DNA of 62,452 bases, from the IMG/VR virus record IMGVR_UViG_3300033076_000975, positions 1 to 62,452 of that record, one strand, 5' to 3'. The notes under the pieces were generated by a model. It made no database searches. It worked only from the letters and a program-made list of their open reading frames with translations, and had not been told where the DNA came from. The stretch comes from a virus. Taxonomy: Duplodnaviria; Caudoviricetes. Positions 1,221-61,768 of this stretch are shown one piece after another. The position numbers were made by a program, and so were the translations under genes. The first letter of the stretch is position 1; every line of letters begins with the position of its first letter.

Positions 1221-2147
1221 TCAGAAGGTATTCTCACGGATGTAACGGAACACGATCTCCGGGGGGAGACCTAGCGAGCATAAATCCCGCACGTCGAAAC
1301 CAAGCGGGAAGGCTCCGTTGGAGAGAAATGGGGGCAGTAGATCCAAGTCCCCGTTCTCACTTGGTAGGCGGTTCCACACGAGCATGTTACAGTTACGGTT
1401 CCATCTCCTTGCGGTGTAATAACAGCGAGTTGGACCTTGATAGCGTTTGCACCCGACCACGGAACCACGGTAACCTGCGGGGTCGTGGTCTCCAAGGAAG
1501 TTGAAGTTTCCCCGGATTGTCCCCAGGTCTTCCGGGAAGACCAGAGCCCCAGGACGCCCAAGAACGCGGTAAGTAGAGAACGCCGGGAGGTCTTCCAGGG
1601 TGTCGATGAGGGCCAGGACGTCCCATTCGCCTTCGCAGATCCAGGTTTCATGATCTTCCTCGGGGGGTAACAGGTTGTTGAAGAGGTGGGATTTGCAGGT
1701 CGGGGTGGAGAAGAGTTTCCGCTTCCCGTTGTCCTCGACCCAGCGTTTCAAATTTACGATCGGGGTGGTGACTTCCTTGGTCTCTTCGTTCACCTTGCGG
1801 ACTTTGATCGGGAGAATCCACTCGTTCGTGAAGTCGTCGTAGACGAGCCCGAAGCGGTGGAGGGTCTTGGCCCCGATGTTCCGTTCCAAGGAGAGCTTGC
1901 GGAGCATACCCTTGGTGGTGGTGTACGACAAGTGCTCATGGAGGTCCCTCAGGAAGGTGTACAAGTTGCCTCGGCGTTCGCACTTCACGCAGCGGTATCT
2001 ACCGTCCAGGTAGTTCACCGAGAAGTGGGTATCATCGAGGCAGAAGCGGCAGTTGCCTAAGGCGTCCTTGTCACTGTAAGGCTCGGCGTGAACCCCGTGG
2101 AAGGCGTAGGCTTTGAGGTAGTTCTTTCGCAAGCACGACTCCTTCAT
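1221..2147 (-). CDS. DNA primase (N-terminal Zn finger + TOPRIM)
   Basis: CRFC...H...CVKC Zn-binding motif; TOPRIM motifs WICEGEWDVLAL and FLGDHDPAG. Confidence 0.8.
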   Translation of the reverse strand: MKESCLRKNYLKAYAFHGVHAEPYSDKDALGNCRFCLDDTHFSVNYLDGRYRCVKCERRGNLYTFLRDLHEHLSYTTTKGMLRKLSLERNIGAKTLHRFGLVYDDFTNEWILPIKVRKVNEETKEVTTPIVNLKRWVEDNGKRKLFSTPTCKSHLFNNLLPPEEDHETWICEGEWDVLALIDTLEDLPAFSTYRVLGRPGALVFPEDLGTIRGNFNFLGDHDPAGYRGSVVGCKRYQGPTRCYYTARRWNRNCNMLVWNRLPSENGDLDLLPPFLSNGAFPLGFDVRDLCSLGLPPEIVFRYIRENTF

Positions 2148-2269
2148 TTTTCTGGCGAATGCTTACTCAGCCTTTGGTTTTCCCTTCTGCGGGCATCTTT
2201 GGCCCCGGATAAGACTATCCGTAGGCGGGCTTTCTTCGCTTTCCTTTTAGCTCTGTTGTTTTTTCCCAT
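2144..2269 (-). CDS. small basic protein (41 aa)
   Basis: Hand translation MGKNNRAKRKAKKARLRIVLSGAKDARRRENQRLSKHSPEK*; fills the gap between polA and primase, with ATGA overlap on the primase start. Confidence 0.45.
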   Translation of the reverse strand: MGKNNRAKRKAKKARLRIVLSGAKDARRRENQRLSKHSPEK

Positions 2270-2273
2270 GGAA

Positions 2274-4382
2274 TTACCAATCCAGTTCTTGGGGGGAAGC
2301 CCAGTCGGTCTCGACCACCGAGATCGAGACGGGGGTGGGGATGCCTACCGATTTTCCAGCGGCGACCATTAAGTCCCGGATGGTGGTGATGTACGGGCGG
2401 TAGTGCTCCACCTTCCAGCCTACCGGGCGGATGAAGTCGAAGCCGAGTTCGTCATGGACCTGGAAGGACAGGAAGGCGTTGGGGAGGAGGCCCACCGGGA
2501 GCCCGTTCTTGGGGGTTGTTGAACGACGGCAAGGCTTCAAGGCCCGGATGATCCTAGGGTCGGTGGATACCTCCTTGCAGTAGGCGTCGGTGGATACCAT
2601 GGCACGCTTCACGAGGATGCCCTCGGTGCCCTGGACTTCGTAGCAGACTCCGGCATACGGGCGGTCGCCACGTTCCTCGTCTTCGGGGATGTGGAGGGGG
2701 TAGCCGCCCCGGGTGACCACGGACATGGTCCCGGCTGAGCGACGTTCGGCACGGAGTTTCCGCTGGGTCTCGGCGAGGTACTCGGTGGCGGTCGGGAACA
2801 TGGAGCGGACCAGGGAGCCCAGGCCCGGTTGGATCTTGTCGAGGTTCTTCTCGGACTTCCCGAAGATGTACCCGAAGTTCACCGCCTTCGCGTCCCGCCG
2901 TTGGATGGCGGAAGGCTTATGGTCTTGTCCGATCCCGTAGAGGCGGCGGGCTACGGTATCGTGTGGGTCAAGGCCCTTCGAGAAGCCGTCGATGAGGGAT
3001 TTCTCTCCCACGATGTGGGCGAAGATCCCGAGTTGGAGCCACTTGTAGTCGAGGCAGAACCAGATCCGCCCTGGGAGGGGACCGAAGACTTTGCGGATCT
3101 TGAAGTCGGAATGCGAGCCTTCCTCGTCCTCCCATTCCTGGCCCTTTCCGACTTGCTGGATGTTCGGATTCGAGGCGGAGAGGCGGGTGGACCGGGTCCC
3201 TGTCTGGTTATAGGAAGGGTGGATACGGTCGGTGCCGTTCCTGAACTCCTCGTACTGATCGAGGTAGTCCAGGGATTTCGAGACCTTGCGGTACTCCATG
3301 AGGGTTTGGAGGGCCACCTTCGCTTTCTTGGTTTTTTCCGGGGAACGCAAGGGGGTCTCTTCGATCTCGGCGAGCATTAAGGGCAGGGCGTGCTTGTCGA
3401 GGGAGACCCCGGTCTTGGTGGTCTTGACGATGGGGGCTCCTAGGGTATTAACCAGCCAATCCACCAGTTGCTTGGGGGAGTTGGGGTTGAGGTCGGGGTT
3501 TCCCGAGAGTTTGCGGAGGATGCCGATTTGGGATGCTTGCTCCTGGAGGTAACGGGAGCGTTCTTGGGAAAGGTTCTGGAGGTTTAAGGAGACGCCGTGG
3601 TTCACCATGCGGTAGATCACGGGGATTACCTGAAGTTGCTCCAGGTAGACGGCCCAGAGATCGTGGACGCCCTGGACGGTCTCCGTGGTGGCATCCTCCA
3701 AGGCTTTCTTGAAGAACAGGAAGAGGGCGATGGTACGCTCCGCGTCCCGGTCGCCGTACTCCGCGAGAACGTCCAGGAAGTGGGGGCTGTGATTGGCACG
3801 ACCCTTGAGGTAGACGGCCCTTGGGACCCAGCCATCCATTTTCAGCCAGGACTCGGATTTATCCCCGGAGTCGGCATGGTCACGATCCACCACCTTCCAG
3901 CCGAGTTTCTTCGCGATGTTCCGGGCTTTGCGGATGGCGTTCAAGAGGACCTTCTCGTCGTCGTCTTCAATGTCCAGGAACTCGAAGGCGAGATCCTTGA
4001 GCCCGTGGGACCCGATGTTCCGATAGACGTGGGAGGCGATGAGGGTATCGTGGAAGGCTGGGACGAAAGTATTCACCCTTCCGCACCCGGATTTTTCTGG
4101 CGAATGCCTGGAGATCCAGAGCGGGATCTGGGGGACTTCGATGGAGGCTAAGGCCCGGAGGTCGAAGTTGGCGTTGTGGAAGACGGGGATCTTGGTCCCG
4201 ACGACTTTGGTGAATTCACGGTAGAAGGATTGAGGGATGATTACCCGTCGAGCGGGGGTAACATCAAATTCCCAGGAGGCGATGTTACCTTCTTCGTCGC
4301 AGGTGGAGACGTAGTAGGGGCGGTCTCCGAACTGGAAGGAGCCTCCGGTGCATTCGGTGTCGATTGCGATGTACTTCGCCAT
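2274..4382 (-). CDS. polA: DNA polymerase family A with 3'-5' exonuclease
   Basis: ExoI IAIDTECTG, ExoII FHNANFDL, TGTRSTRLSASNPNIQQ, motif A CLDYKWLQL, motif B RRDAKAVNFGYIFG, motif C QVHDEL. Start set at MAKYIAID. Confidence 0.92.
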   Translation of the reverse strand: MAKYIAIDTECTGGSFQFGDRPYYVSTCDEEGNIASWEFDVTPARRVIIPQSFYREFTKVVGTKIPVFHNANFDLRALASIEVPQIPLWISRHSPEKSGCGRVNTFVPAFHDTLIASHVYRNIGSHGLKDLAFEFLDIEDDDEKVLLNAIRKARNIAKKLGWKVVDRDHADSGDKSESWLKMDGWVPRAVYLKGRANHSPHFLDVLAEYGDRDAERTIALFLFFKKALEDATTETVQGVHDLWAVYLEQLQVIPVIYRMVNHGVSLNLQNLSQERSRYLQEQASQIGILRKLSGNPDLNPNSPKQLVDWLVNTLGAPIVKTTKTGVSLDKHALPLMLAEIEETPLRSPEKTKKAKVALQTLMEYRKVSKSLDYLDQYEEFRNGTDRIHPSYNQTGTRSTRLSASNPNIQQVGKGQEWEDEEGSHSDFKIRKVFGPLPGRIWFCLDYKWLQLGIFAHIVGEKSLIDGFSKGLDPHDTVARRLYGIGQDHKPSAIQRRDAKAVNFGYIFGKSEKNLDKIQPGLGSLVRSMFPTATEYLAETQRKLRAERRSAGTMSVVTRGGYPLHIPEDEERGDRPYAGVCYEVQGTEGILVKRAMVSTDAYCKEVSTDPRIIRALKPCRRSTTPKNGLPVGLLPNAFLSFQVHDELGFDFIRPVGWKVEHYRPYITTIRDLMVAAGKSVGIPTPVSISVVETDWASPQELDW

Positions 4383-6523: not shown

Positions 6524-7738
6524 TCAGTCGGCAAGTTCGGGGAAGACTTCGGAACGACGGTAGAGACCACTGGTGCTCCCGGAGGTCAAGAGTTCAAAGA
6601 AGTCGCCGCGACGACCGGAGGCTAAGGAGTCATAGACTCCGAAGGGGCGTTGGTAGTGATAGGGAGAACCCCAGGGGTCGAAGGGATTGGCTTTGATCGA
6701 ATCCCACCATTGTACCACCTGCGTCAAGATCGGGTTGAAGGTCCGTTCTTGCCAGCGTTCTAAAGCCCCGGGCTCCAGGGTGTGGGGCCAGCGGATGAAG
6801 TAGCGGTCCCGTTGTTCCAGGGCCGTATCCTTAACCCGCTTGATGAAGTCCCGGAGAGTCTCCCCCTTTCCCTGGCGGAGAGCCGGGCGGCGGATGACAT
6901 TGTAGAGGACGCCTCCCACCGTCTCCCCCTTGAGGTGAGTCAAGGCGGTGACGTACATCATGGTCTGGAGATCCTGGGAGAGGGTCCGGGAGATCCCGTC
7001 CACGTCAATGTCGCTTTTCGTCTTCGTCTCCATGATCCAGAGGGAACCATCCTTCTTGCGGAACACAGCGTCGATCTTCCCCCGGAGCTTCACCTCGCGA
7101 TGTGTAACGCCGTAGTGAATTTCGGGCCTGCCGTAGTTTTCCGAGTTCTCATCCAAACAGACTTCTCCACAGTCACAGGGAACCGTCAGTTGGATGTTGT
7201 GGGGAATCTCGAACTTCTCCTCGTGAAGGATGAACTGCTTCTGGTCCACGTCCTCATGGTAGACGTCGCGGTAGGCATGGACCATGGCTTCCACCATGCC
7301 CATGAGGACCTCGAATTCCTGGATCTGATTCGGGAATAGGGCCTTTGCGGCGATTCTGGACTGTTGGTACTGCCGCGTGATTTTTTCTGGCGGATGCTGA
7401 GGGTTCTCCAGGCAGGCGTGGAAGGCGTTGCCGAATTCCATCGCGGCTTGGAGTCCGGTCTCCGACCAGCCTTCGACGGAGGAAAGGCGGAAGCGTTCGG
7501 GACAGACCATGAACTTGGAGAGCATGGAATACGTGATCCCATCGCGGTCGAGATCCCAGAGGGGCTCGTTGTTCTTCCCCCGCTTCTTGGAGAGTTCCGC
7601 CATGCGTTGCTGGGGAGTCTTGCGAGGGGCGTAAGGCTTTCGCTCTTGGGCGAGGCGGGTTGGTTTTGGCGGTTTTTTCTCGGTTGGACGTTTGGCCCCC
7701 CGGAGGACGGCTTTGTTCTTTGGCATCTTGATGGGCAT
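6524..7738 (-). CDS. PD-(D/E)XK exonuclease (RecB/Cas4-like)
   Basis: TYSMLSKFMVCP, FGNAFHACLE, LRGKIDAV...IMETKT, QTMMY. Confidence 0.82.
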   Translation of the reverse strand: MPIKMPKNKAVLRGAKRPTEKKPPKPTRLAQERKPYAPRKTPQQRMAELSKKRGKNNEPLWDLDRDGITYSMLSKFMVCPERFRLSSVEGWSETGLQAAMEFGNAFHACLENPQHPPEKITRQYQQSRIAAKALFPNQIQEFEVLMGMVEAMVHAYRDVYHEDVDQKQFILHEEKFEIPHNIQLTVPCDCGEVCLDENSENYGRPEIHYGVTHREVKLRGKIDAVFRKKDGSLWIMETKTKSDIDVDGISRTLSQDLQTMMYVTALTHLKGETVGGVLYNVIRRPALRQGKGETLRDFIKRVKDTALEQRDRYFIRWPHTLEPGALERWQERTFNPILTQVVQWWDSIKANPFDPWGSPYHYQRPFGVYDSLASGRRGDFFELLTSGSTSGLYRRSEVFPELAD

Positions 7739-9080: not shown

Positions 9081-9455
9081 CTAGGATTTTTTCTGGCGAA
9101 TACGTGAGAGCTTCGTGGATACCTTGGCGGCGAGTTTCGGAAGGCCCACGGCCCGGAGGTACTCCGCGACCACGATGGGCATATCGTCCCGGTGGAAGGA
9201 AAGGATGTACCCGGGGTGGTGCTTCTTCCCGAGGCAGAGGACGACGGCCTTCCCCTCCTTATCGGCGAGGGGTTTGGCTTTGAGGTAAAGCCGCCAGAAC
9301 GGGGAGTTGGCGTTGAGCTTGCCTTCCAGGAACAGGCGGGGGTGGTGGCTGTCGGAGGCGGTGACCTTGGAGTTGCTCCCGGACAGGGAATTGCGGACGG
9401 TTCCCCAGTCGGAGGCGAGACGGCGTTCGTAGGCTTTCCAGGCTTTGTCGGCCAT
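9081..9455 (-). CDS. Holliday junction resolvase-like PD-(D/E)XK nuclease
   Basis: WKAYERRLA...R..LSG...SD...FLEGK pattern of Hjc-like phage resolvases. Confidence 0.65.
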   Translation of the reverse strand: MADKAWKAYERRLASDWGTVRNSLSGSNSKVTASDSHHPRLFLEGKLNANSPFWRLYLKAKPLADKEGKAVVLCLGKKHHPGYILSFHRDDMPIVVAEYLRAVGLPKLAAKVSTKLSRIRQKKS

Positions 9456-10678: not shown

Positions 10679-12157
10679 TCAAGGATGGTCATCGCGGCAT
10701 TCCTTGGAGCAGGGAGATTTGGGAGCACACAAGATCCGTTCCTTAGGACGTTCATTGGGGTTATTACCCATGGTCTTAAGGTCTCCTAATAAGGTACAGT
10801 CCCATCCCACTTTTGTCAACCAGCGACGTTTCTCCTCCAGGTATTCCTTGGCTTCCTTGAGGCACTGGGCATTAAAGGGAGGAAGGTCAGGCCAGGGGTG
10901 GGCATGGATAATACTACCCTTCCCCTGGCAGGCATGGTGGAAGAGTACCTCCTCGGAATTCGGTTTTTTCTGGCGAATGCAGGGGGAGACGTAAATCGGG
11001 GCGTTGGCTAAGGAGAAGTCGGAGCCGCAGGCTCTCCAAGCGATATGGAAGGTGTCCTTGTCGCCGTAGAGGAATTGATACCAATAGTCCTGGTGCTCAT
11101 TCATCCAGTTGGTGACGGTCAGTTCCTTGGCGCAGCGGTTTTTGTTGATGATGAGTTGGCCGCTCTCGAAGTCGGGTTCGGTCTGATGGGGGAGACCGGC
11201 ACGGTTCCAGACGTCGGGCTTAAGGCGGCAGGGGGATTCCGGGGGGTGTTCGATATCCGGCCAAAAGAGAGCCCCGGTGTCGGTGTACGATTCGTGCGAG
11301 AAGAGAAATGTCGGGTCGGCAAGGGGGATGCAGTCGGCGTCTAAGGAGAGGACTTCCGCGAAGCGGGAATGGTAGATGGCGAAGGGTTTGATGGCGAAGC
11401 CTTGGAGGAAGCGGTGGGGAACTCCGATGGCGGTGGCGTCCACGAGTTCGATGCCATAGTCTTCGGCGATGAGGCGAAGGGCCGCGTCATATTCGCCAGA
11501 AAAATGCCAGAACTGGATGGGGAGGGCACAGCCGAGTTTGCGAAGGGTATAGACCACCGCGAAGGCACACCGGAAGTAGACCGGGCCACCGGCACAAATG
11601 ACGATCCCCTGGCCATCCCAATTTTTCTGGCGAATAGGCCGTGCTTCGGTCTGCTCCTTTAAGGCTTCGCCCATGGCGAGATGGGCTACCCTCCAGGAGG
11701 TCCAGCCAGCGGGCATGTTCGGACGAGGGCCGTCGAGGAGGTTGCGGAATTCGGAGAGCCGCATTTCAAGCCCGGATTCCGGCTCACGGTAGCCACATTC
11801 CCGGCAGACCCGGTAGCCGGAGGCTCGGGCCATTTGCTCCTGGCGTTCTTGCCCGGCGATGAAGCAGCGGGTTACGTTGGCCTGGGGGTGGTGGCAGGCG
11901 TGGGCGATATTCCCCCCGTTGCAGGTTCCGCACCCGGGGATGGTGAAGTCTTTTCCCCCACGGTGAACGCAAGGGTAGCGGATCTCGGGTGGACTGTCGG
12001 GGACAAGGACCTTACCGATGCCCCAGAGGCGGCGGTAGCCGTGGTTGTAAACGGCGAGCCAGCAGAGGTGGCACTGGGTGTTATCCCATACATGGGAGGT
12101 AACACCTTTGCATTTGACCGGGTGGTTGGGGATCTTCGAGGCAAGGGAGAAAACCAT
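10679..12157 (-). CDS. GT71/Mnn-like (mannosyltransferase-type) glycosyltransferase with Cys/His-rich N-terminal domain
   Basis: GIVICAGG, LGCALPIQFW, KPFAIYHSRFAEVLSLDAD (DxD), GALFWPD, ESGQLIINK, YGDKDTF. Confidence 0.8.
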   Translation of the reverse strand: MVFSLASKIPNHPVKCKGVTSHVWDNTQCHLCWLAVYNHGYRRLWGIGKVLVPDSPPEIRYPCVHRGGKDFTIPGCGTCNGGNIAHACHHPQANVTRCFIAGQERQEQMARASGYRVCRECGYREPESGLEMRLSEFRNLLDGPRPNMPAGWTSWRVAHLAMGEALKEQTEARPIRQKNWDGQGIVICAGGPVYFRCAFAVVYTLRKLGCALPIQFWHFSGEYDAALRLIAEDYGIELVDATAIGVPHRFLQGFAIKPFAIYHSRFAEVLSLDADCIPLADPTFLFSHESYTDTGALFWPDIEHPPESPCRLKPDVWNRAGLPHQTEPDFESGQLIINKNRCAKELTVTNWMNEHQDYWYQFLYGDKDTFHIAWRACGSDFSLANAPIYVSPCIRQKKPNSEEVLFHHACQGKGSIIHAHPWPDLPPFNAQCLKEAKEYLEEKRRWLTKVGWDCTLLGDLKTMGNNPNERPKERILCAPKSPCSKECRDDHP

Positions 12158-14912: not shown

Positions 14913-14938
14913 TCCCCGGTTTTTTCTGGCGAATACGC

Positions 14939-18705: not shown

Positions 18706-19650
18706 TTAGAACTTCTTGGCGGAGACGGCTGGGATAGTACCCGTCAGTTGCATGTTCTGGAAGTTGGGATTCAGGAAGTTCTCGATCCCCTGTTGCATAT
18801 TCTCCAAGCCCGTCTTCTTGTCGGGGATCTTACGGGCGATGGTTCGTAGGACGCTGAGGACGGAGTTCTGGGTAGCGATATCAACCCCGGATGCGATTAA
18901 GGCGGCACGCATCGCGTTCTCGACTTGCTTCCCAATGACGAACCCATAGTTCTCGGCAATGTACCTACCTATCTTAACCAAGTCCTTGAGGTCCTTTACC
19001 CCTTGGTTGAACAAGGGGAGGATGGCCTTGGTCAAGGCTGTATTCATCGCCTTGATTTCCACGGACAGTTGCGTTCTTTCTCTGGCGAACGCGGAGAGTT
19101 CCCGGGAAAGGACGTTGGCCCGTTCGATCTCCATCATGAGGAGCTTCGCGTCACTGATCGCCGCTTCCATGCCAATGGGAGCGTTGAACTTCCGACCCCG
19201 CTTCACCATCTCCTGGAAGGAGTCATCTAAAGCGGTGACCGTCTCCACGAAGGTATCCACCGCCATGGTAGCGACGGCGAGAGCCGCCGTGAGGACCGAG
19301 AGAGCGGCCCCGGTACTCATGGCGGCGTTCGGAATGAGAGGGGTGTTCCCGGGGTCGGGGACAGGAGGGTTCGGGATCTGGATGGGAGGACCCCCAGGGC
19401 CGTTTGGGTCGCCGAAGTCAGGTTCCCCTGGGGTAATGGTAGTATTCCAGCTATCGCTTTTGCCTTTGCCATCGTCGCCACTCCCGCCTAAGGCGGATGT
19501 GACATTGAAGGTCCCGGGGGGAGCCCCTCCTTTTCCCCCTTCCGCTGGAGTCGGAATGATGGGGGAATTCGGCGAGGCCGGGTTCTGAGGGGGCGGAGTC
19601 GTGTCCCGACTGAGGATTACGATCTCCGCTTTGACGTCGTTCCCGGCCAT
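18706..19650 (-). CDS. possible short tape-measure-like protein
   Basis: Follows the tail tube candidate; Pro/Gly-rich N-terminus then an Ala-rich helical region. Confidence 0.4.
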   Translation of the reverse strand: MAGNDVKAEIVILSRDTTPPPQNPASPNSPIIPTPAEGGKGGAPPGTFNVTSALGGSGDDGKGKSDSWNTTITPGEPDFGDPNGPGGPPIQIPNPPVPDPGNTPLIPNAAMSTGAALSVLTAALAVATMAVDTFVETVTALDDSFQEMVKRGRKFNAPIGMEAAISDAKLLMMEIERANVLSRELSAFARERTQLSVEIKAMNTALTKAILPLFNQGVKDLKDLVKIGRYIAENYGFVIGKQVENAMRAALIASGVDIATQNSVLSVLRTIARKIPDKKTGLENMQQGIENFLNPNFQNMQLTGTIPAVSAKKF

Positions 19651-19680
19651 GTCCAGCCTCCTGGATTTTTCTGGCGAATG

Positions 19681-22245: not shown

Positions 22246-22281
22246 AGGGCACCTCTGGATTTCGGTTTTTTCTGGCGAATG

Positions 22282-37626: not shown

Positions 37627-37720
37627 AATAGTAGTACCTTTCTACTGTGTACTGCACCATAGATTTTTCTGGCGAATACTACCTAAGAGGGCCTATCCCT
37701 CCCAGGTAGGTAGTATACCT

Positions 37721-39277: not shown

Positions 39278-39533
39278 CATGGTATGGCTCCTTCAGGCTC
39301 TCGGGAGGGTCTACGAGAATCATCCCTACCAGGAGATGCTCCAGGAGCTTCAGAAGGCCAAGGACTTGGTTCCCCAGATGTATCCCCTGCTTCAGGCGGT
39401 CCATGAGGTTCTGGAGACGCAACACTCCGTCCTCAACGCCTTGGGGATGCTGACTCAGGTTATCCCCTCCAAGGTTTCTCTGGTGGATGCCGAGGTATCG
39501 ACCACTCCCTCAACCCTTATGGAGATGCCATGA
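39258..39533 (+). CDS. hypothetical protein
   Basis: Overlapping operon ORF. Confidence 0.55.
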   Translation: MVINENDMVWLLQALGRVYENHPYQEMLQELQKAKDLVPQMYPLLQAVHEVLETQHSVLNALGMLTQVIPSKVSLVDAEVSTTPSTLMEMP

Positions 39534-44954: not shown

Positions 44955-45023
44955 GACTGACTCCTTGATAGAAAAGGGGTGGACAGGCCACCCCCTGGGA
45001 TTTTGGTTTTTTCTGGCGAATGC

Positions 45024-45239
45024 CTACTTCACCGAGACGACGACGCCGTTTTCGACGATGGCCGTCCCGTAGAACCTATGGGGTTCCGGGTAATGGGGGC
45101 CCTCGAAGGTCACGCTCCCTAGGGTGATTTCCTGGGTTCCCCAAGGCGTGTTCTCCATCGCGGTGATCCGTTGGCCCTTGTCGATGGCCTCCTTGTAGGC
45201 TTTCTTGCTCTTGAGATTCGGGTACAGGTATGCGGTCAT
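45024..45239 (-). CDS. hypothetical early protein
   Basis: Cassette leader AAGGAGTCAGCCATG. Confidence 0.7.
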   Translation of the reverse strand: MTAYLYPNLKSKKAYKEAIDKGQRITAMENTPWGTQEITLGSVTFEGPHYPEPHRFYGTAIVENGVVVSVK

Positions 45240-48634: not shown

Positions 48635-48844
48635 GACTCTGACTCCTTAAGGGGAACACAGGGAAAGTGAAAAGGGGAAGGAACAGACCTTCCCCCAGCT
48701 TCGGTATTATCCCATATTAGGGATGGTATTGTCAAGCCGGGAAGGTGGCGTCGAAGTCTCCGAAGGGAGTCCCTAGGGCGGCCTTCAAGGCTTCGATCAT
48801 GGGTTCCGGGTCGTTGAAACGGACCAGGGTTTTTCTGGCGAATG

Positions 48845-49477
48845 CTAGAAATCGACGCGGGTTAAGGCGATGGAGAAGAGGTAGAGGCCCTCGTCATCCA
48901 CGGGGTTGCCGTTGCCGTCGTAGCAGCAGCGGAGGGATACCTTGTTCCAGAGGCGTTCGCAAGGCGGGTCCGGGTCTTTCTGGTCCCGGAGGGATGGGTC
49001 CTTGGATTCCGCGAGGAGGCGATAGAAGACTTCCTTCGCGGTTTCCAGGGAGCCGTCTTCCTTGGGTTTCGCATGGACGTTCAACCAGACTTCCCCGTCT
49101 TCGATGTAGTCGAAGAGTTCGTGTTCCTCGATCTTGCACCCTCCGTGTTCACTGACGTGATCGAGGGCATATTCATAGGCTTCCTCCAGACTATCCGCCT
49201 GGACGACGTACAAAGGCGGGGAGAAGCAATCCTCCACGTAAAAGAGGTAGAAGACGCTCCCACTGTCGTCACCTTCCGCGAGTTCGAGGACGTTGAGGGG
49301 TTCTTGAGCGTTCCGCAGGAATTCGGTCCAGGGGGGATACCCTTGGGAATTCTGGTTTTTTCTCCACTTCTTCAGGGCCTCATCGTAGGCGAGATCCAAG
49401 ACGAGTGGCTCGTGGAAACGGTTGTTGGTGAACCAGAAGCGGGTGGGTTGTTGCTTCAGGTAATCGAGAGAGGGCAT
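48845..49477 (-). CDS. hypothetical early protein
   Basis: AAGGAGTCTCCCATG start; VVQADSLEEAYE. Confidence 0.7.
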   Translation of the reverse strand: MPSLDYLKQQPTRFWFTNNRFHEPLVLDLAYDEALKKWRKNQNSQGYPPWTEFLRNAQEPLNVLELAEGDDSGSVFYLFYVEDCFSPPLYVVQADSLEEAYEYALDHVSEHGGCKIEEHELFDYIEDGEVWLNVHAKPKEDGSLETAKEVFYRLLAESKDPSLRDQKDPDPPCERLWNKVSLRCCYDGNGNPVDDEGLYLFSIALTRVDF

Positions 49478-49760: not shown

Positions 49761-49792
49761 GGGAGACTCCTTGGATTTGTTCGCCAGAAAAA

Positions 49793-50278
49793 TTAGGGGT
49801 TTGACGGATCGGGGTGGGAGGTCTCGTAGAGGGAGGCTTCCCATTCGTTGAGGGGTATGGCGATATCGTCGATGGTGATGACCGCTTCCTGGGTCTCGTA
49901 GTCGAAGTGGTAGGAGGAGTTGCCGTACTTCTTCTCGGCCTTGGCGCATTCGCGGTGGATACGCCGGGTCCCCCCGTCCGAGACCTTGAAAGTCATGCCA
50001 AAGGGGCCGGTTCTACGGACAGCCACCCGGAAGCGTTTCACTTCCTTCTGGGTGACTACCAGGATCTCGGAAGGGTCGGTGATATGGCGGGAGGGCTCGT
50101 TGGAGCATTGCCAGTTCGGCTTGGTGACTCGGTTGCCGTTGGCGTCGATATAGGGCGTGGACCAGGAAGCCCCGGGATTACTAAAGTTGATGGATTCCCA
50201 GACGAGGATTCCGCCTCGCTTGGTGACCCACTCCAGGAATTTGGGGGCATTCTCAACGGTGATGGTGTGCTTTTCCAT
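49793..50278 (-). CDS. hypothetical early protein
   Basis: Cassette promoter and AAGGAGTCAGTCATG start. Confidence 0.7.
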   Translation of the reverse strand: MEKHTITVENAPKFLEWVTKRGGILVWESINFSNPGASWSTPYIDANGNRVTKPNWQCSNEPSRHITDPSEILVVTQKEVKRFRVAVRRTGPFGMTFKVSDGGTRRIHRECAKAEKKYGNSSYHFDYETQEAVITIDDIAIPLNEWEASLYETSHPDPSNP

Positions 50279-51756: not shown

Positions 51757-52179
51757 CTATTTCCCCTTGGTTTTTCTGGCGAATGCTGTCCAGGCTCGTC
51801 GGAAGGCTTTGAAGGAGACCTTAGCGAACATGGCCTGAGTCTTGCGGCGGATCTTCTCGTTACAGGAGAGACAGTAGAACAGGCCGCAGAACTCCTTGCG
51901 TTTTTCCTTGTCGAAGAGGACGGTGAGCTTCGAGGTGCCTTCGATGGGTTCGCCTTTGTCGTCGCGTTCGGGGACGCGGCAGAGGCAACAGGTGGGGTAC
52001 TCTCCATAGTGGTAGCCGACGATGGCTCCACTGGTGGAGAGCTTAATCCTTTGCTTGACTTCCTCTTCCCGTTCGTGAAAGGTCTTTACTTCCGTGTTAT
52101 ATCCACGTGCTCCGTAGCTACCGGGGACGTAGACACTCCAGGTGGCGACGTAGCCTTTGACGGTGGCTGGGATGGTCAT
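51757..52179 (-). CDS. hypothetical protein with Zn-binding motif
   Basis: CCLC...CLSC; follows the helicase. Confidence 0.65.
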   Translation of the reverse strand: MTIPATVKGYVATWSVYVPGSYGARGYNTEVKTFHEREEEVKQRIKLSTSGAIVGYHYGEYPTCCLCRVPERDDKGEPIEGTSKLTVLFDKEKRKEFCGLFYCLSCNEKIRRKTQAMFAKVSFKAFRRAWTAFARKTKGK

Positions 52180-53983: not shown

Positions 53984-54343
53984 TCAGGTTCCTTCGTCAC
54001 AACTGGCTTCGGCGACGGGGATACCCTCCGGTTCCTGGTTTTTTCTGGCGGATGCTGCTTTGGCCTTTTCGTACTCCCAGGTCTGGAAAGCCCGGACATA
54101 GGCTTGGACTTCGTCGTGGCCGGTGGCGGAGCGGAATCGGGAGGAGTCAAAGTTCTGACCGTGTTCGATGGCGAAGTCGTAGAGGCTGGAGTACCAGTTC
54201 AGCCAGGACAGGCAGGATTGGTAGATGGCTTTCGACTTGGAGCCAAGGTAAAAGGTCTTGCCGTCCACCTTGTAGGGGATAGGGGGCTTCGAGTTGCGGA
54301 GGATTTCCGCCAAGGCTTCGTAGTGTTTCCGGGAGAGGGACAT
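53984..54343 (-). CDS. hypothetical early protein
   Basis: SRKHYEALAEIL...NFDSSRFRSA pattern; cassette promoter and leader. Confidence 0.7.
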   Translation of the reverse strand: MSLSRKHYEALAEILRNSKPPIPYKVDGKTFYLGSKSKAIYQSCLSWLNWYSSLYDFAIEHGQNFDSSRFRSATGHDEVQAYVRAFQTWEYEKAKAASARKNQEPEGIPVAEASCDEGT

Positions 54344-54653
54344 GGGAGACTCCTTAAATGAGGGACGAAAGTTCAGGAGCGGATGCTCCTTAGGGTAGGG
54401 AAAGGTCCCGAGGGAAATCCTCAGGTTCCAATAGTGTAACATCCTAAGTAGTGTATTGTCAAATGGGATGGGAAGGGAGCATTCGCCAGAAAAATGGCGT
54501 CCAGAGGTGGCCTCGGTGAGGGGGGAGAGGGGATAGAAGTCGGCGTAAGGCCGAGGGGAGAACGCTGCTTGATCGCTCAAGCTGAGGATCAGGTTGACGA
54601 TCCAGGGAGGGGTAGACCCTGACCGTGATCGCTCAAGCTGAGGAGGGAGCCTT

Positions 54654-55880: not shown

Positions 55881-55898
55881 GGTTTTTTCTGGCGAATG

Positions 55899-56147
55899 CT
55901 ACGAGGAAGTGGCGGAGGTCTCGGCGGCTTCGAGGCATCTCGGGCACAAGCGGTCCTTCGAGGCCCCGAGGGGGAGGTGGGGCGAGGCCCCGACCGTGAT
56001 TGAGACCGGGAAGCCCTCGACCCCGTCGTCGGGGAGGGGGGAGACGGTGTAATCGCGGACGAAGGTATGTCCGCAGGTGAAGGTCACGCGGTACTTATTG
56101 AACGTCGGGTTGGGGTGGGGCGTGATGCTGCGGATGACGGGGATCAT
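55899..56147 (-). CDS. small Zn-binding protein
   Basis: TCGH...LCPRC. Confidence 0.55.
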   Translation of the reverse strand: MIPVIRSITPHPNPTFNKYRVTFTCGHTFVRDYTVSPLPDDGVEGFPVSITVGASPHLPLGASKDRLCPRCLEAAETSATSS

Positions 56148-56577: not shown

Positions 56578-56613
56578 GGCGCCCTCGCGGATCTCGGTTT
56601 TTTCTGGTGAATG

Positions 56614-56949
56614 CTATGGACGGCAGAGATAGAGGATGGCGTACCCGGCGAGGTCCATCATGGTATCGTCAATGGATTCCTGGACTTGGGCGTCGGAGTC
56701 GGAGTTCAGGAGGTTGCGTAGGCGTTCGATCTTGTCGCTCATGCGAACGAGGATCGAGGTTCCACAGCCGAGATCGGGGAGGAGAACGGGGGATTTGTGG
56801 GCCGAGCCTCCGTAGTCCGCGTTCTTGCGGAGAAGGGTGGCGACGATGGAGAGGCCGGTCTCCGCGATGCGTTGCTGGTCGCCGCCTCGGAGTTCTCGAA
56901 GGGCTTCTTGTAAGAGATTGAAATCATCGGTTGTGGAGTACTCGGACAT
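56614..56949 (-). CDS. nucleotide-modification-associated domain 1 (DUF1599-like, MazG-type fold)
   Basis: LRKNADYG...ILVRMSDKIERL...ESIDDTMMDLAGYAIL. Confidence 0.8.
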   Translation of the reverse strand: MSEYSTTDDFNLLQEALRELRGGDQQRIAETGLSIVATLLRKNADYGGSAHKSPVLLPDLGCGTSILVRMSDKIERLRNLLNSDSDAQVQESIDDTMMDLAGYAILYLCRP

Positions 56950-59365: not shown

Positions 59366-59525
59366 GGAAGTATCCTCTCTTACCTGAGGTTGTTTCGAGA
59401 CGCTCTTGGCGGAGCAATCCCAGGCGACCCCCAGGCGACTAACCCGGTTCCAGGTGGCCTGGGGGTTAGTCTAGAGAGGATTATCTAAGGGGTCCAGGCC
59501 GAATCCTGGATTTTTCTGGCGAACG

Positions 59526-59975
59526 CTAACGACCTCGGCCTCGGACTTGGCGTCTCCGGTGACGACGGCCCCTGACGGACTTGAGTTTCTTCTTGGGGCC
59601 CCTGACGGACTTGAGTTTCTTCTTGGACTTTTTTCCCAGGCTTTCTCCCATGGATTTGTAGGCGGCGGAGATCCGGGTCTTCCAGTGTTTGCTTTTCCGA
59701 GCGTTCGGGTAAGCTCGATAGATCGCGGCTCGGAAGCGGCCTAGTTCCCGCTTGGACTTCGCGTTCTGGAATCCCTTGACGGCTCGGTCGAGGCCCCGGG
59801 CGTCTTTGGAGGACTTGGACTTCGGGGGACGTCCCACCTCGACCGAACTCTTCTGATTCTGGCCTTTTCGGACTGTTGGTTTACGTGTCTTCGTGGCCTT
59901 GGACTTGCCTCTGGCGGATTGGCCTCTCTTCTTTTGGGATCTTACCTTTGGGGCGTTGGATTGCTTGCGGGCCAT
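59526..59975 (-). CDS. extremely basic protamine/H1-like protein
   Basis: 149 aa, about one-third K/R; duplicated KKKLKSVRG (30-nt tandem repeat); ends RRHRRRQVRGRGR. Confidence 0.7.
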   Translation of the reverse strand: MARKQSNAPKVRSQKKRGQSARGKSKATKTRKPTVRKGQNQKSSVEVGRPPKSKSSKDARGLDRAVKGFQNAKSKRELGRFRAAIYRAYPNARKSKHWKTRISAAYKSMGESLGKKSKKKLKSVRGPKKKLKSVRGRRHRRRQVRGRGR

Positions 59976-60111: not shown

Positions 60112-60359
60112 GACTTTCTCCGTTTGCAGGGTTTGTCTTCGTCTACCGTGACGAGGGCTCCGCTTCCGTAGGCGTTGAGGATGGTTTCCAAGATCGCCAT
60201 CAGGAGGCGGTCTTCCTCGGTGAGTTCGTCTTCGTCGGAGATTCGACAACAGATGACCCGGTCCTCGTCGTCGAGGAGGGTGAGGGAGTTGGCGCAATCC
60301 TCCTCGATGCGGACGGGGAAGGCGATGGAGACGCGGATTTCGTCGAAGTCATCGGGCAT
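60108..60359 (-). CDS. small acidic protein
   Basis: AGGAG RBS; follows the ParB fusion gene. Confidence 0.6.
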   Translation of the reverse strand: MPDDFDEIRVSIAFPVRIEEDCANSLTLLDDEDRVICCRISDEDELTEEDRLLMAILETILNAYGSGALVTVDEDKPCKRRKS

Positions 60360-60361
60360 GG

Positions 60362-61768
60362 CTACTCCTGGGGTTTCTTGCCGCCTCGGGATTTCTTCCC
60401 CTTCATGGATTCGCGGCGGAGTTCCATGAAGGAGGGGAGGTAGACGTAGCGTACCTTCCGGGAGATGGAGTGACGGGACTTTCCGAGGTGAACGGTTTCC
60501 GGGAGATAGCCCTCGAATTTAGCTTTGTGCTCCCGCCCGTAGACGATGACCACCTCTGGTTTCACGGTTTTTACTTGGTTCGATAACCAGACGCCAAACT
60601 CCTCGAAGGACCCTCCGCTTTGTTTGATGGTGCGGCATTGGCAAGCCACCACGGGTGGTCGGAGAGCGGCGAGGTTTTCCAGGGTAATGTCCACTGGTCC
60701 AGAGGATAGCCGGGGATTTTTCTGGCGAACGCTGAAGTTGGTGGTCTGGAGGATCGGGAGGACGCGGAAGCCGTGGGACTGCCAGTATCGGGCCACCCAC
60801 AGGGAACGGTAGGCCGCATACAGACGAAGGGGGAAGGGCCAGTCCTCGTAGTTGCTGAAGTCGGGTTGCGTGAGGGCGGTGAAGTTCCATTCCTGGAGTT
60901 CCTGGATGTAGTCCCCGGGGAAGTCATAGTAGCCTCGTAGGTGGTAGTCGTTGCAGAAGGTCCCAAGGATGCCCCCGGAGACCCCGGAGGCTTCCCGTTC
61001 CTTCCAGGGGGTGGCTGAAAGGCAATACCAGGAATGTTCGCTGACGGAGGAGGGGGAGCGGTCGTAGGTCTTGGTCGGGATTTGGTCCGGGGTAAGGAGG
61101 AGATCGGGGAGGAGGGTCGGGAGTTGGAAGGTATCATCCCCCTGGAAGAAGACGTCGTCGATGGCGACTTCCTCTTTTACCTCGGGTTCATCGTAGTCGT
61201 GGAGGTCTTCGGGCGGCTTCCGTTTTTTTCTGGCGGACATGCCCCCGAGGGGCAGGGGGGAGGCTTCGCGTTCGCCTTGTTCGACGGAGCGGGCGAAGTT
61301 GCCGATGGAGGTCTGGAGCTTCTCCAAGGTTTTCGCGTGCTCGGCTTTCAGGCCGGTCACTCGTTTGGATTGCTCCGAGACCATGGCGTTCAAGGATTTC
61401 AGGCGTTCATGGTCCACGCGGTACATGGACCCGATAGTATCAATGGACTGGAGGAGGAAGTTTTCCTCCTCTTCGGTCCAGCGACCTTTGGCGACGGGGA
61501 CTGCGGTGAGCCCCGCTTTGACGCACTTCGCTTTACGGCCATGGCCGTCGAGAAGGCGGTTGGTGTTTACATTGTAGAGGAGCGGGAGGACGAACCCCGC
61601 CCGTTGGATCGCGACGAGAGCCGCGTCCAACTGGGACTGGGGATGCGTCTTCCAGTTTCGAGGGTTGTCGCCCAGGGAACGGGGGTCCACGACCTCCAAG
61701 GATTCCCACCGCATGAGCTTCTGGAAAACCGGAGGCAGGGTGATTTTGGTGGTATCTTTTGGAGGCAT
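60362..61768 (-). CDS. ParB-N domain fused to DUF4417-like domain
   Basis: N-terminal NPRNWKTHP...GFVLPLL...LLDGHGR; C-terminal FCNDY...PDFSNYEDWP...YRSLWVARYWQSHGFRVLP. Confidence 0.8.
   Translation of the reverse strand: MPPKDTTKITLPPVFQKLMRWESLEVVDPRSLGDNPRNWKTHPQSQLDAALVAIQRAGFVLPLLYNVNTNRLLDGHGRKAKCVKAGLTAVPVAKGRWTEEEENFLLQSIDTIGSMYRVDHERLKSLNAMVSEQSKRVTGLKAEHAKTLEKLQTSIGNFARSVEQGEREASPLPLGGMSARKKRKPPEDLHDYDEPEVKEEVAIDDVFFQGDDTFQLPTLLPDLLLTPDQIPTKTYDRSPSSVSEHSWYCLSATPWKEREASGVSGGILGTFCNDYHLRGYYDFPGDYIQELQEWNFTALTQPDFSNYEDWPFPLRLYAAYRSLWVARYWQSHGFRVLPILQTTNFSVRQKNPRLSSGPVDITLENLAALRPPVVACQCRTIKQSGGSFEEFGVWLSNQVKTVKPEVVIVYGREHKAKFEGYLPETVHLGKSRHSISRKVRYVYLPSFMELRRESMKGKKSRGGKKPQE

What the first reader, a model, noticed from the sequence alone, without database searches (positions are those of the whole stretch)
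2147..61238. Genome-wide, polarised ~16-bp signal (about 30 copies) fused to stop codons and written into genes in every frame
Seen: I counted 24 exact copies of TTCGCCAGAAAA by eye, 20 in one orientation, plus at least 8 near-matches, about one per 2 kb. Chance expectation for a given 12-mer in 125 kb is about 0.01. Many intergenic copies overlap or directly follow the upstream stop as TAG-CATTCGCCAGAAAAA (19681, 22282, 26523, 37114, 48845, 55899, 56614, 59526). Coding copies translate as HSPEK (polA), IRQK (resolvase, glycosyltransferase twice, gpG-like), FARK/SARK, or antisense FSGE, so selection acts on the nucleic acid rather than the peptide. It is not a palindrome, promoter, RBS or terminator. 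Inference, candidate roles: (a) loading sites for one of the two ParB-like proteins, organising the phage chromosome; (b) programmed single-strand nick sites, as in T5, phiKMV-like and tf virion DNA; (c) strand-specific priming sites at Okazaki-like spacing; (d) stoperator-like repressor sites or Chi/KOPS-like directional signals. This is the best candidate for an undescribed system here.
Basis: partly seen in the sequence, partly recalled or inferred. Interest (0 to 1): 0.88.

Follow-up and report, generated by a model that had tools for sequence, protein, structure and literature searches.

The report
Oriented repeated signal in phage genome
A 20-letter DNA word occurs about 30 times in an uncultivated phage, nearly always pointing the way the genes are read, and its relatives carry altered spellings of it; it is most likely a phage-specific gene-expression signal of a kind seen in other phages, but what reads it is unknown.

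Summary
TTCGCCAGAAAA occurs 24 times exactly (20 on the - strand, 4 on +; 0.02 expected). The full signal is a 20-nt asymmetric word, AG-YR-TTCGCCAGAAAAA-W-CC, of about 30 bits. It has 35 hits at 12 bits or more (shuffles give 0-2) and 30 at 20 bits or more. The window is a whole uncultivated phage genome.

New here:
- Relatives lack this spelling but have their own polarised word with the same core, CC(A/G)GAAAA, and a different 5' half.
- Copies sit at homologous places inside the PolA and ParB-DUF4417 genes of different genomes, in different reading frames.
- 19 of 30 strong copies lie in the 14% of the genome that is non-coding.
- Every genome examined has a sense copy just upstream of the terminase genes.
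- The word is not a host repeat.

Function remains unproven. I favour a phage-specific transcription start signal (0.35). Rivals are a stoperator-like roadblock (0.17), an RNA-level junction signal (0.15) and nick or priming sites (0.13). No polymerase, sigma factor or repressor was found, and no RNA data exist. Dispersed oriented repeats are known in other phages, so this is a new variant of a known kind, not a new category.

The parts
2144..2163 (-). copy, 30.8 bits; spacer between PolA and primase genes, 12 nt before an SD-preceded start at 2132
3330..3349 (-). weaker copy, 19.4 bits, inside PolA (frame 0, RSPEK), in a 6-residue insertion relative to relatives
4089..4108 (-). copy, 32.0 bits, inside PolA after the ExoII motif (HSPEK); relatives have a copy at the homologous place
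7379..7398 (-). copy, 30.1 bits, inside the PD-(D/E)XK nuclease gene
9085..9104 (-). copy, 30.1 bits, at the last codons of ORF 9081-9455; 12 nt upstream of the -35 of sigma70-like site 9072
10962..10981 (-). copy, 32.2 bits, inside the glycosyltransferase gene (3' part)
11488..11507 (+). reversed copy, 26.1 bits, inside the glycosyltransferase gene; convergent with the copy at 11619, 111 nt away
11619..11638 (-). copy, 24.5 bits, inside the glycosyltransferase gene
14918..14937 (-). junction copy, 31.6 bits; 2 nt after a stop, 12 nt before the next start
19074..19093 (-). weaker copy, 19.8 bits, inside ORF 18706-19650
19663..19682 (-). junction copy, 34.6 bits, TAG-fused; SD starts right after it, start codon 13 nt on
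21500..21519 (-). copy, 24.4 bits, inside ORF 21193-21750 (frame 2, IRQK)
22264..22283 (-). junction copy, 34.7 bits, TAG-fused; start 19 nt on
26505..26524 (-). junction copy, 32.7 bits, TAG-fused
30004..30023 (-). junction copy, 30.3 bits, between the decoration-like gene and the major capsid gene; 14 nt before the capsid start
32703..32714 (+). core-only copy TTTTCCAGAAAA, 11 nt before the ATG of the lone + strand gene 32726-34066
34082..34101 (-). copy, 34.7 bits, in the gap between the terminase stop and the end of the + gene
37096..37115 (-). junction copy, 30.4 bits, TAG-fused, between the gene upstream of terminase and the large terminase gene
37597..37615 (-). CT-rich variant CTCTCTCCCAGAAAAAACC (the spelling of relative G001) in the first codons of ORF 37114-37626
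   Evidence: read directly
37661..37680 (-). copy, 31.4 bits, in the divergent control region; 35 nt upstream of ORF 37114-37626
37792..37811 (+). copy, 26.8 bits, facing the + gene block; 24 nt upstream of the -35 of sigma70-like site 37836
38872..38891 (+). copy, 25.0 bits, sense in the + block; 14 nt after the methyltransferase stop
39472..39491 (-). weak copy, 16.7 bits, antisense in the + block
41179..41198 (-). copy, 30.4 bits, left of the convergence point; probably antisense to ORF 40970-41407(+)
45005..45024 (-). junction copy, 32.1 bits, next to TAG; followed 10 nt later by a GC hairpin with a T-run, then SD and start
48827..48846 (-). copy, 32.5 bits, TAG-fused; 91 nt upstream of sigma70-like site 48735
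49776..49795 (+). reversed copy, 23.5 bits, in a junction of - strand genes, between a TAA stop and the next SD
51768..51787 (-). copy, 31.3 bits, in the last 30 nt of ORF 51757-52179; 13 nt before the next start
54037..54056 (-). copy, 31.6 bits, in the 3' part of ORF 53984-54343; 60 nt upstream of sigma70-like site 53976
54478..54497 (+). reversed copy, 28.9 bits; on the - strand it lies 15 nt upstream of sigma70-like site 54462
55881..55900 (-). copy, 34.7 bits, TAG-fused; abuts the ATG at 55880 of the 408-aa HTH/TerS-like protein
56596..56615 (-). junction copy, 30.8 bits, TAG-fused after the DUF1599 gene
59508..59527 (-). copy, 32.6 bits, TAG-fused; next start 143 nt on
60714..60733 (-). 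copy, 32.6 bits, inside the ParB-DUF4417 gene (frame 2)
61222..61241 (-). copy, 21.9 bits, in the linker of the ParB-DUF4417 gene (frame 1); same alignment column as copies in G001, G003 and G004
61769..61788 (-). weak copy, 17.6 bits, at a junction; abuts the ATG at 61768 of ParB-DUF4417
62268..62287 (+). weak reversed copy, 15.6 bits, inside ORF 61788-62414

Best explanation
The word is a DNA signal for transcription that belongs to this phage clade. Most likely it is a phage-specific promoter, with transcription starting at or just past its 3' end (..AAAAAWCC). It would be used by an RNA polymerase whose specificity is set by a phage protein not yet recognised. That protein could be a sigma-like or appropriator factor on the host enzyme, or an unrecognised phage polymerase. 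The conserved 3' half, CC(A/G)GAAAA with its A-tract, would be the melting and initiation part. The 5' half, which differs between relatives, would be the specificity part, as in the T7/T3/SP6 promoter family (recalled).

Host sigma70 RNA polymerase would serve the early and replication genes from the TTGACA-N18-TAnAAT sites. The word would serve the rest, including the 27-kb virion module.

Shown: the anatomy, the conservation and the distribution. Inferred: that it starts transcription, where the start lies, and that a phage factor reads it.
For: 1. The virion module (10.9-37.8 kb) has no strong sigma70-like site. The tool lists only 3 sites at 9 of 12 in 10.9-30.8 kb, fewer than the shuffle mean of 5.9, and none at 10 of 12 or better on the - strand up to 37.8 kb. 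The module holds 12 strong copies of the word, 11 of them sense. Strong sigma70-like sites (17 at 10 of 12 or better) cluster elsewhere.
2. Copies lie upstream of the same genes in diverged genomes. A copy lies upstream of the terminase genes in all 6 genomes (G000 37661 and 37096; G001 45087 and 45148; G002 1464; G003 27275; G004 4971; G005 36543). Another lies upstream of the decoration/capsid pair, and another upstream of the primase gene. In G001 and G003-5 the primase copy lies inside the 3' end of PolA.
3. In three genomes (G000, G001, G002), outward-facing copies sit on both sides of the divergent control region.
4. The only + strand gene inside the - strand virion module has a sense core copy 11 nt before its ATG.
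5. The word carries about 30 bits over 15 nearly invariant consecutive positions. About 12 bits would suffice to mark 30 sites in 125 kb (my arithmetic). Such excess is typical of phage-polymerase promoters (recalled).
6. The core is conserved and the 5' half changes among relatives whose capsid identity falls to 28%.
7. sigma70-like sites in this genome also overlap upstream stop codons. Fusion to a stop codon is therefore what compaction does to a promoter here too.
Against: - No RNA polymerase, sigma factor or known activator was found. I scanned about 60 ORFs with Pfam or PHROGs, and a D.D.D (any residue between the aspartates) regex found no plausible catalytic motif in an unexplained long ORF. 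Most early proteins match nothing, so this is a weak negative.
- The geometry is awkward for a sigma-type enzyme. In 3 junctions the SD begins right after the word (2144, 19663, 51768). A start 5-7 nt past the A-tract would cut it off.
- In G003 and G005 a sense copy follows the last gene of the inverted block and runs straight into a hairpin terminator, with no gene behind it.
- Copy density is the same where strong sigma70-like sites exist. 18 of 30 strong copies lie in the sigma70-free 62% of the genome (my count).
- The conserved copy in the first third of PolA has no obvious gene to serve.
- The 'ATG right after the word' pattern is probably not a leaderless start for terminase. Homologues fit the start at 37059.
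- There is no transcript evidence of any kind.
Confidence: 0.35

Rival explanations
1. Stoperator-like roadblock. A phage DNA-binding protein sits on the asymmetric word and stops or slows RNA polymerase that arrives in one orientation, punctuating or silencing transcription units.
For: The anatomy matches the published description of L5-type stoperators (recalled; abstracts of PMC9283540 and PMC6550527 seen in the listing). The features in common are:
- an asymmetric word of about 30 copies;
- 26 of 30 strong copies co-oriented with genes;
- placement at stop codons;
- spellings that differ between relatives.

Several copies end a unit just before the next sigma70-like site (9085, 48827, 54037; G001 14755, 27622, 32612) or before a hairpin terminator (45005; G003 33550; G005 41995). 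A copy lies between a weak promoter-like site and the first virion gene in G000 and G001.
Against: - 0 of 17 strong sigma70-like sites overlaps or is closely followed by the word. The repressor of such a system would therefore not control the early promoters, which is a defining feature of the L5 system.
- Several of those promoters instead carry their own dyad, ATCC(C)-N3-6-GGGAT, in the spacer.
- No repressor, integrase or ParA was found.
- Some copies lie upstream of promoters, where a roadblock does nothing (37792, 9085).
Confidence: 0.17
2. RNA-level junction signal. The word acts in the mRNA, between one gene's stop and the next gene's ribosome site. It could be a binding site for a translational regulator, a processing site, or a partner for the few reversed copies, which appear as complementary RNA in the same transcripts.
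For: - The word has sense orientation, and 9 copies are fused to TAG.
- The word ends 12-19 nt before the start codon at 7 junctions, with the SD directly after it.
- In G003-5 the copy in the terminase leader sits in a conserved hairpin, with CAGAAA in the loop and the pyrimidine tract paired to a purine tract. Four pairs have changes on both sides, but only 3 related sequences were available.
- Fifteen consecutive invariant positions would suit base pairing.
- The 11619(-)/11488(+) pair could form a 16-bp duplex within one mRNA.
Against: - Copies in the divergent control regions lie upstream of the only recognisable promoter and may not be transcribed (G000 37792; G001 44955).
- Reversed copies also occupy junctions (49776, 54478).
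- Several copies have no start codon within 90 nt (48827, 59508, 34082, 41179).
- No Rfam family matches.
- Conserved copies lie inside PolA and ParB-DUF4417.
Confidence: 0.15
3. Strand-specific DNA signal outside gene expression. The word would mark programmed nicks in virion DNA (as in T5, phiKMV-like and tf-like phages) or priming sites for the phage primase on the lagging-strand template.
For: - The strand bias is strong: 25 of 30 strong copies lie on one strand.
- Positions are similar across relatives and spellings differ slightly between them, as reported for tf-like nick motifs (PMC3517423, passages read).
- A 20-nt nick consensus exists in phiKMV-like phages (same paper).
- The clade conserves a ParB-like nuclease fused to DUF4417 (phrog_940 'nuclease') and a DnaG-type zinc ribbon.
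- In the small inverted gene blocks, about half of the copies keep the majority strand, not the gene's strand (my count; the rule used for G003-5 is noisy and those genomes are related to one another).
- The complement of the core holds CTG, the E. coli DnaG trinucleotide (recalled).
- The + strand is G- and T-rich throughout.
Against: - 19 of 30 strong copies are in non-coding DNA, against 14% expected (P 7.6e-10). For nick motifs, 88% lie in coding sequence, equal to coding density (PMC11780129, passages read).
- Proven nick motifs lie on one strand only. Here 5 of 30 strong copies are on the other strand.
- At the divergent regions of three genomes the copies face outward with the genes.
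- Spacing is irregular, from 0.6 to 4.2 kb, and long genes such as terminase have none.
- Known primases need 3-5 nt, not 20 (recalled).
Confidence: 0.13
4. Loading or binding sites for one of the ParB-like proteins (chromosome organisation or KorB-like global control), or boundary sequences that guide modular recombination between relatives.
For: - A ParB-DUF4417 protein is conserved in all five full genomes, and a second ParB-like gene is present.
- Dispersed ParB-family operators exist on plasmid RK2 (recalled).
- A subset of copies shares 30-45 nt of extended similarity, as if whole junction cassettes had been copied.
Against: - The word is asymmetric, whereas parS-type sites are dyads (recalled).
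- Breakpoints of similarity between related genomes are not near the word: 3 of 44 HSP ends within 40 nt (random mean 1.27, P 0.14), 0 of 58, and 1 of 46.
- Thirty direct repeats would invite deletions if they were recombination sites.
Confidence: 0.06

Closest known systems
Stoperators of Cluster A mycobacteriophages (L5 gp71; TipsytheTRex repressor)
   Same: An asymmetric short word, about 24-37 copies per genome, co-oriented with transcription, in short intergenic gaps and over stop codons, with spellings that differ between related phages. These details are recalled; I saw only the abstracts of PMC9283540 and PMC6550527 in the listing.
   Different: - The word here is 20 nt, not 13.
- No copy acts as an operator at any of 17 strong sigma70-like promoters.
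- No repressor or lysogeny genes were found.
- A third of the copies are inside genes, at places conserved across genomes.
- The clade shares an 8-nt core across very distant members.
Promoters of phage-encoded single-subunit RNA polymerases (T7, T3, SP6 and kin)
   Same: A highly conserved word of about 20-23 nt and about 30 or more bits. It occurs in many co-oriented copies, often overlapping the end of the upstream gene and sometimes inside genes. One half is conserved and the other, specificity half changes between relatives (recalled).
   Different: No such polymerase is encoded here. The only family-A polymerase has a 3'-5' exonuclease domain. The sequences are unrelated.
21-nt direct repeats of phage TLS and other T1-like phages
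   Same: [quoted passage not shown] The function is unknown; the authors weigh stoperators, enhancers and UP elements (PMC11447400, abstract and passages read).
   Different: The TLS sequence is different (aaATAGCACnnnTTGnTAAAA), and its repeats lie about 76 nt upstream of starts. Here the word is 0-51 nt upstream and is tied to the preceding stop codon. The supplementary table of that paper could not be seen.
Nick-associated motifs of tf-like, phiKMV-like and T5-like phages
   Same: A short conserved word on one strand, with 4-14 copies, similar positions in relatives and slightly different spellings between relatives (PMC3517423 and PMC11780129, passages read).
   Different: Those motifs lie on one strand only and are not enriched outside genes. 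Here 5 of 30 strong copies lie on the other strand and 63% are non-coding.
17-bp repeats of Cluster O mycobacteriophages and start-associated sequences of Cluster K
   Same: More than 30 dispersed copies, a third of them in coding sequence, with no known function (PMC4351075, passages read).
   Different: The Cluster O repeat is a dyad without orientation. The Cluster K sequences are tied to start codons (recalled from PMC3203893; only the listing was seen).

Membership tests
L5-type stoperator/operator system | Asymmetric site in many copies, co-oriented with transcription, at gene junctions | tested here: met
   26 of 30 strong copies are sense; 19 of 30 are non-coding; 9 are fused to TAG.
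L5-type stoperator/operator system | The same site serves as operator at the early lytic promoter | tested here: not met
   0 of 17 sigma70-like sites at 10 of 12 or better overlap a copy; the nearest gaps are 12, 15 and 24 nt upstream of the -35.
L5-type stoperator/operator system | Cognate immunity repressor and a temperate way of life | tested here: inconclusive
   Pfam or PHROGs on about 60 ORFs found no repressor, integrase or ParA. Most small proteins match nothing.
Promoters of phage single-subunit RNA polymerases | A phage-encoded T7-like RNA polymerase | tested here: not met
   No PF00940-type hit. The largest ORFs are terminase with an intein, PolA with an exonuclease domain, and tail proteins.
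Promoters of phage single-subunit RNA polymerases | About 20 nt, highly conserved, co-oriented, upstream of genes, with a variable specificity half | tested here: met
Promoters of phage single-subunit RNA polymerases | Transcripts start inside the word | not testable with these tools
   No RNA run holds the phage.
Programmed nick sites (T5, phiKMV-like, tf-like) | All sites on one strand | tested here: not met
   5 of 30 strong copies are on the + strand.
Programmed nick sites (T5, phiKMV-like, tf-like) | Placement indifferent to coding sequence | tested here: not met
   63% of strong copies are non-coding against 14% of the genome; PMC11780129 reports 88% of nick motifs in coding sequence.
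Programmed nick sites (T5, phiKMV-like, tf-like) | A physical single-strand break at the motif in virion DNA | not testable with these tools
   Only assembled contigs were available.
parS / ParB-family operator | Dyad-symmetric site | tested here: not met
   The word has no dyad symmetry.
Host repeat (REP-like, uptake sequence, Chi) | Abundant in a host genome | tested here: not met
   The 19-mer GCATTCGCCAGAAAAAWCC gives 23 single hits in 23 unrelated genomes of 185,579 species, none with two. The 8-nt core alone was not tested in genomes.
Cluster K start-associated sequences | Fixed position just upstream of start codons, including the ribosome site | tested here: not met
   The distance to the next start ranges from 0 to more than 190 nt, and 11 copies are inside genes.

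The most novel reading that the evidence does not exclude
An uncultivated phage clade has its own transcription system. An unrecognised protein, either a novel promoter-specificity factor or a polymerase with no detectable similarity to known ones, reads a bipartite word made of a variable 5' half and the core CC(A/G)GAAAA. That word has been kept for as long as the capsid gene has diverged to 28% identity. It is written even into the linkers of the PolA and ParB-DUF4417 genes, in whichever frame fits.
Probability: 0.15. Interest if true: 0.8.

Novelty: new variant of a known kind. Interest (0 to 1): 0.55.

Why it matters
Dispersed oriented words are among the few handles on gene control in phages that have never been grown. 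This case is unusually clean. The word carries about 30 bits. An 8-nt core is shared by relatives ranging from 39 to 58% G+C. The 5' half changes genome by genome, and copies are kept at the same places inside essential genes in different reading frames. That layout allows a co-variation search for the protein that reads it. It also gives ready-made test sites for 5'-end mapping or nick mapping if the phage or its host is found. If the copies are nick sites, they would extend that unexplained feature to a new clade.

Tried and rejected
- **Close relatives by DNA:** megablast of 8 kb against cultured phages found no match.
- **Cultured relatives by protein:** tblastn of the capsid protein found no match. 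PolA matched only at 23-26% identity. There is therefore no cultured relative and no host name.
- **PolA as a single query for related loci:** nothing.
- **Capsid alignment in species genomes:** nothing, so no prophage or host.
The long contigs that encode the closest capsid relatives (P0003, 76% identity, 54 kb; P0011; P0021) could not be fetched.
- **Sequencing runs:** no RNA holder was listed.
- **Laid contigs of 4 runs:** no starts, ends or joints. Loose ends next to copies at 22257, 30000 and 37115 are explained at least in part by the other copies of the repeat.
- **Recombination-boundary idea:** breakpoints are not near the word.
- **Programmed readthrough idea:** 5 of 9 TAG-fused copies are in frame with the next gene. 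However, the spacers are copies of one another, and G001 does not keep the frame (read). Dropped.
- **Leaderless-start idea:** an ATG abuts the word at 4 copies, but terminase homologues fit the later start with an SD. Not used.
- **Antisense-terminator idea:** a hairpin plus the word's T-run on the + strand was seen at about 6 copies. Terminator-like counts are not above shuffles, and no hairpin is conserved. Dropped.
- **sigma54, UP-element and class-I activator readings:** the spacing does not fit or is not constant (read).
- **Candidate readers:** the 408-aa protein looks like an HTH or small-terminase protein and has no match among solved structures. ORF 49488-49760 has a faint KOW hit at E 0.052, below the family cut-off. 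Neither is evidence of binding.
- **PDB sequence searches** of three large unknowns found nothing useful.
- **Rfam:** only the tRNA.
- **Earlier notes:** no look-alike windows in other genomes.
- **Supplementary tables** of the cited papers were not opened.

Full report
**What the window is.** The window is a complete record of an uncultivated phage: 62,452 bases, CheckV completeness 100%, no end repeats. Pfam and PHROGs identify:
- a large terminase with a LAGLIDADG intein;
- a lambda-E-type major capsid protein;
- a gpD-like decoration domain;
- PolA with a 3'-5' exonuclease domain;
- a DnaG-type zinc ribbon;
- an AAA_24 ATPase;
- a PD-(D/E)XK nuclease;
- a uracil-DNA-glycosylase-like protein;
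- a UvrD-like helicase;
- a ParB-DUF4417 fusion;
- a DUF1599 protein;
- a glycosyltransferase;
- an FkbM methyltransferase.

Most early proteins match nothing. There is one tRNA-Glu and no other Rfam match. Genes run almost entirely on the - strand, apart from a block at about 37.9-41.4 kb and one gene at 32726-34066. There is no cultured relative.

**The observation.** TTCGCCAGAAAA occurs 24 times exactly, 20 on the - strand and 4 on +, against 0.02 expected. There are 32 copies with up to one mismatch and 39 with up to two, against 4.85 expected. Aligning the 32 copies shows conservation over 20 nt, AG-YR-TTCGCCAGAAAAA-W-C-C. Fifteen consecutive positions are nearly invariant, and the total is about 30 bits. 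A weight-matrix scan finds 35 hits at 12 bits or more (20 shuffles gave 0-2) and 30 at 20 bits or more. Because genes are on the - strand, the common orientation is the sense orientation. I count 26 of the 30 strong copies as sense to the local genes; the status of 41179 is uncertain.

**Where the copies lie.**
- 19 of the 30 strong copies lie in the 14.1% of the genome that my rough gene calls leave non-coding (binomial P 7.6e-10).
- The typical site is a gene junction. Nine copies have a TAG stop fused to the first two letters of the word. The word ends 12-19 nt before the next start at seven junctions and 35-51 nt before it at four.
- Junctions without the word are mostly shorter than 20 nt: 28 such junctions. 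The word therefore makes the gap.
- Eleven copies are truly inside genes: PolA (two), the PD-(D/E)XK nuclease, the glycosyltransferase (two sense and one reversed), two virion genes, and ParB-DUF4417 (two). They use all three frames.
- Three reversed copies also sit at non-coding places or junctions (49776, 54478) or pair convergently with a sense copy 111 nt away (11488 with 11619).

**Relatives.** A capsid search found relatives only in metagenomes. An alignment of them retrieved nine IMG/VR loci and ten JGI loci.

None carries the window's spelling: each of G001-G004 has one 1-mismatch hit and G005 has none. The most over-represented words in each relative are nevertheless variants of the same thing.

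| Genome or locus | Capsid identity | G+C | Word | Counts |
|---|---|---|---|---|
| G001 | 54% | 50.5% | TCTCTC-CCAGAAAAAAACC | CCAGAAAA 25 on + and 3 on -, against 2.3 and 1.4 expected |
| G002 | 54% | 52.1% (17-kb fragment) | CCGGAAAA | 8 on + and 2 on -, against 1.6 and 1.0 |
| L159 | 28% | 46.8% | TTCTCTT-CCAGAAAAA | CCAGAAAA 8 times on the gene strand in 16 kb, against 0.2 |
| G003, G004, G005 | about 30% | 39-43% | pyrimidine tract + TCCAGAA | CTCCAGAA 13, 14 and 11 on the gene strand, against about 2 |

Two loci show no such word in the part I hold: L152, and L132, which has a different enriched word.

The window itself holds one copy of the G001 spelling (37597-37615). The clade therefore shares an 8-nt core, and the 5' half is genome-specific.

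The word is not a host repeat. A 19-mer that matches 7 copies in the window gives 23 scattered single hits in the genomes of 185,579 species.

**Conserved positions.** In an alignment of the five PolA proteins (31-38% identical), every genome has a sense copy in the variable stretch after the ExoII motif. Four of the five have another copy directly after motif C (QVHDEL).

The reading frame differs between genomes:
- At the first site, G003 and G005 use frame 0 and G004 uses frame 1.
- At the second site, G001 uses frame 1 and G003-5 use frame 2.

The peptides therefore differ while the nucleotides are kept.

The ParB-DUF4417 gene has a copy at the same alignment column (186-187) in the four genomes where the gene is whole, again in two frames. 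A sense copy lies just upstream of the terminase genes in all six genomes. One also lies upstream of the decoration/capsid pair.

Among G003, G004 and G005, the 22-nt motif windows are more conserved than their flanks: 0.89 against 0.82, 0.84 against 0.75, and 0.81 against 0.74. The rule used to define copies in those AT-richer genomes is loose, and some of its hits are probably not real sites.

**Relation to ordinary promoters.** The tool's sigma70 scan finds 17 sites at 10 of 12 or better, nearly all TTGACA-N18-TAnAAT. They fall in three places: 5.6-10.7 kb, 43.7-56.3 kb, and 37836 and 39126 on the + strand. None lies in 10.9-37.8 kb on the - strand or in 56.3-62.45 kb plus 1-5.5 kb. No copy of the word overlaps any of them.

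Copies can lie 12-91 nt upstream of a -35 (9085, 54478, 37792, 54037, 48827). The same is seen three times in G001. A copy can also lie downstream of a weak promoter-like site in the leader of the virion operon. This is the case for G000 37750, which has a poor -10 and is found by my regular expression only, and for G001 44979. This mixed order argues that the word is an element in its own right, not an operator or activator site of the sigma70 promoters.

In three genomes the divergent control region carries outward-facing copies on both sides.

**Weighing the mechanisms.** I favour a phage-specific promoter (0.35), for five reasons:
- The 27-kb virion module has no credible host-type promoter but has 12 strong copies.
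- Copies are kept upstream of the same key genes in all relatives.
- Copies face outward at the divergent regions.
- The lone + strand gene has its own sense core copy 11 nt before its ATG.
- The word has the information content and the two-part evolution of phage-polymerase promoters (recalled).

Against this reading:
- No polymerase or sigma factor is recognisable (and the family scans).
- The SD follows the word so closely at three junctions that a sigma-type start would cut it off.
- G003 and G005 have a copy that fires into a terminator with no gene behind it.
- Copy density is no higher where host-type promoters are absent.

A stoperator-like roadblock (0.17) matches the anatomy best, but it fails the operator-at-early-promoter test and lacks a repressor. 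An RNA-level junction signal (0.15) fits the stop-codon link and the hairpin in the terminase leader of G003-5, but not the copies upstream of promoters. Nick or priming sites (0.13) fit the strand bias and the conserved ParB-like nuclease and primase. They do not fit the 4.5-fold non-coding enrichment or the copies on the other strand, which set this word apart from proven nick motifs (PMC3517423, PMC11780129). Recombination boundaries are not supported.

**Comparison with what is known, and verdict.** Oriented or dispersed short repeats are a known feature of phage genomes. Examples are L5 stoperators, T7-type promoters, the unexplained 21-nt repeats of TLS/T1, the Cluster O repeats and the tf/phiKMV nick motifs. 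Earlier notes of this scan list several more in other windows; these are unchecked AI notes.

This case is a new variant. It is not a member of any of those families by sequence or by their defining features. It stands out for its clade-wide core, its changing 5' half and its conserved in-gene placements. Whether it is new in kind depends on what reads it, which cannot be settled without transcript or virion-DNA end mapping.

Noticed in passing
window 5586-5615, 6493-6522, 8751-8780, 46778-46807, 48706-48735 and other sigma70-like sites: Several TTGACA-N18-TAnAAT sites carry a small dyad, (C)ATCC(C)-N3-6-GGGAT(G), inside the 18-nt spacer. It looks like the operator of a dimeric regulator, separate from the dispersed word.
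   Followed up: partly
window 32726-34066 (+): A 446-aa gene of unknown function lies on the opposite strand, between the terminase and portal genes. Its homologues in G001 (55% identity) and G002 (46%) are also on the opposite strand there. It has no Pfam or PDB match.
   Followed up: partly
All five also read NFG(Y/F)IFG in motif B (alignment).
   Followed up: partly
window 34261-37095: The large terminase carries a LAGLIDADG homing-endonuclease intein. Relatives G001 and G003 have the gene without it, at 524 and 481 aa.
   Followed up: no
window 44975-44995, 46749-46768, 48673-48696, 53912-53944: GC-rich hairpins followed by a T- or pyrimidine-rich linker (once a TTTCC run of about eight units) sit between promoter-like sites and the ribosome site of early genes. 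They look more like 5' stabilisers than terminators.
   Followed up: partly
window 49488-49760 (-): A 90-aa early protein has a faint match to a KOW domain of Spt5 (E 0.052, below the family cut-off). Its gene is the one headed by the reversed copy at 49776.
   Followed up: no
L142:7215-7310, L144:4911-5006, L148:16483-16578 (relatives G003-G005): The leader of the terminase gene folds into a conserved long hairpin with the CAGAAA of the word in its loop. Four pairs change on both sides, but only three related sequences were available.
   Followed up: partly
window 54500-54640 (-): Two direct copies of CCTCAGCTTGAGCGATCA lie in the 310-nt spacer after the 408-aa gene, upstream of the reversed copy of the word.
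   Followed up: no
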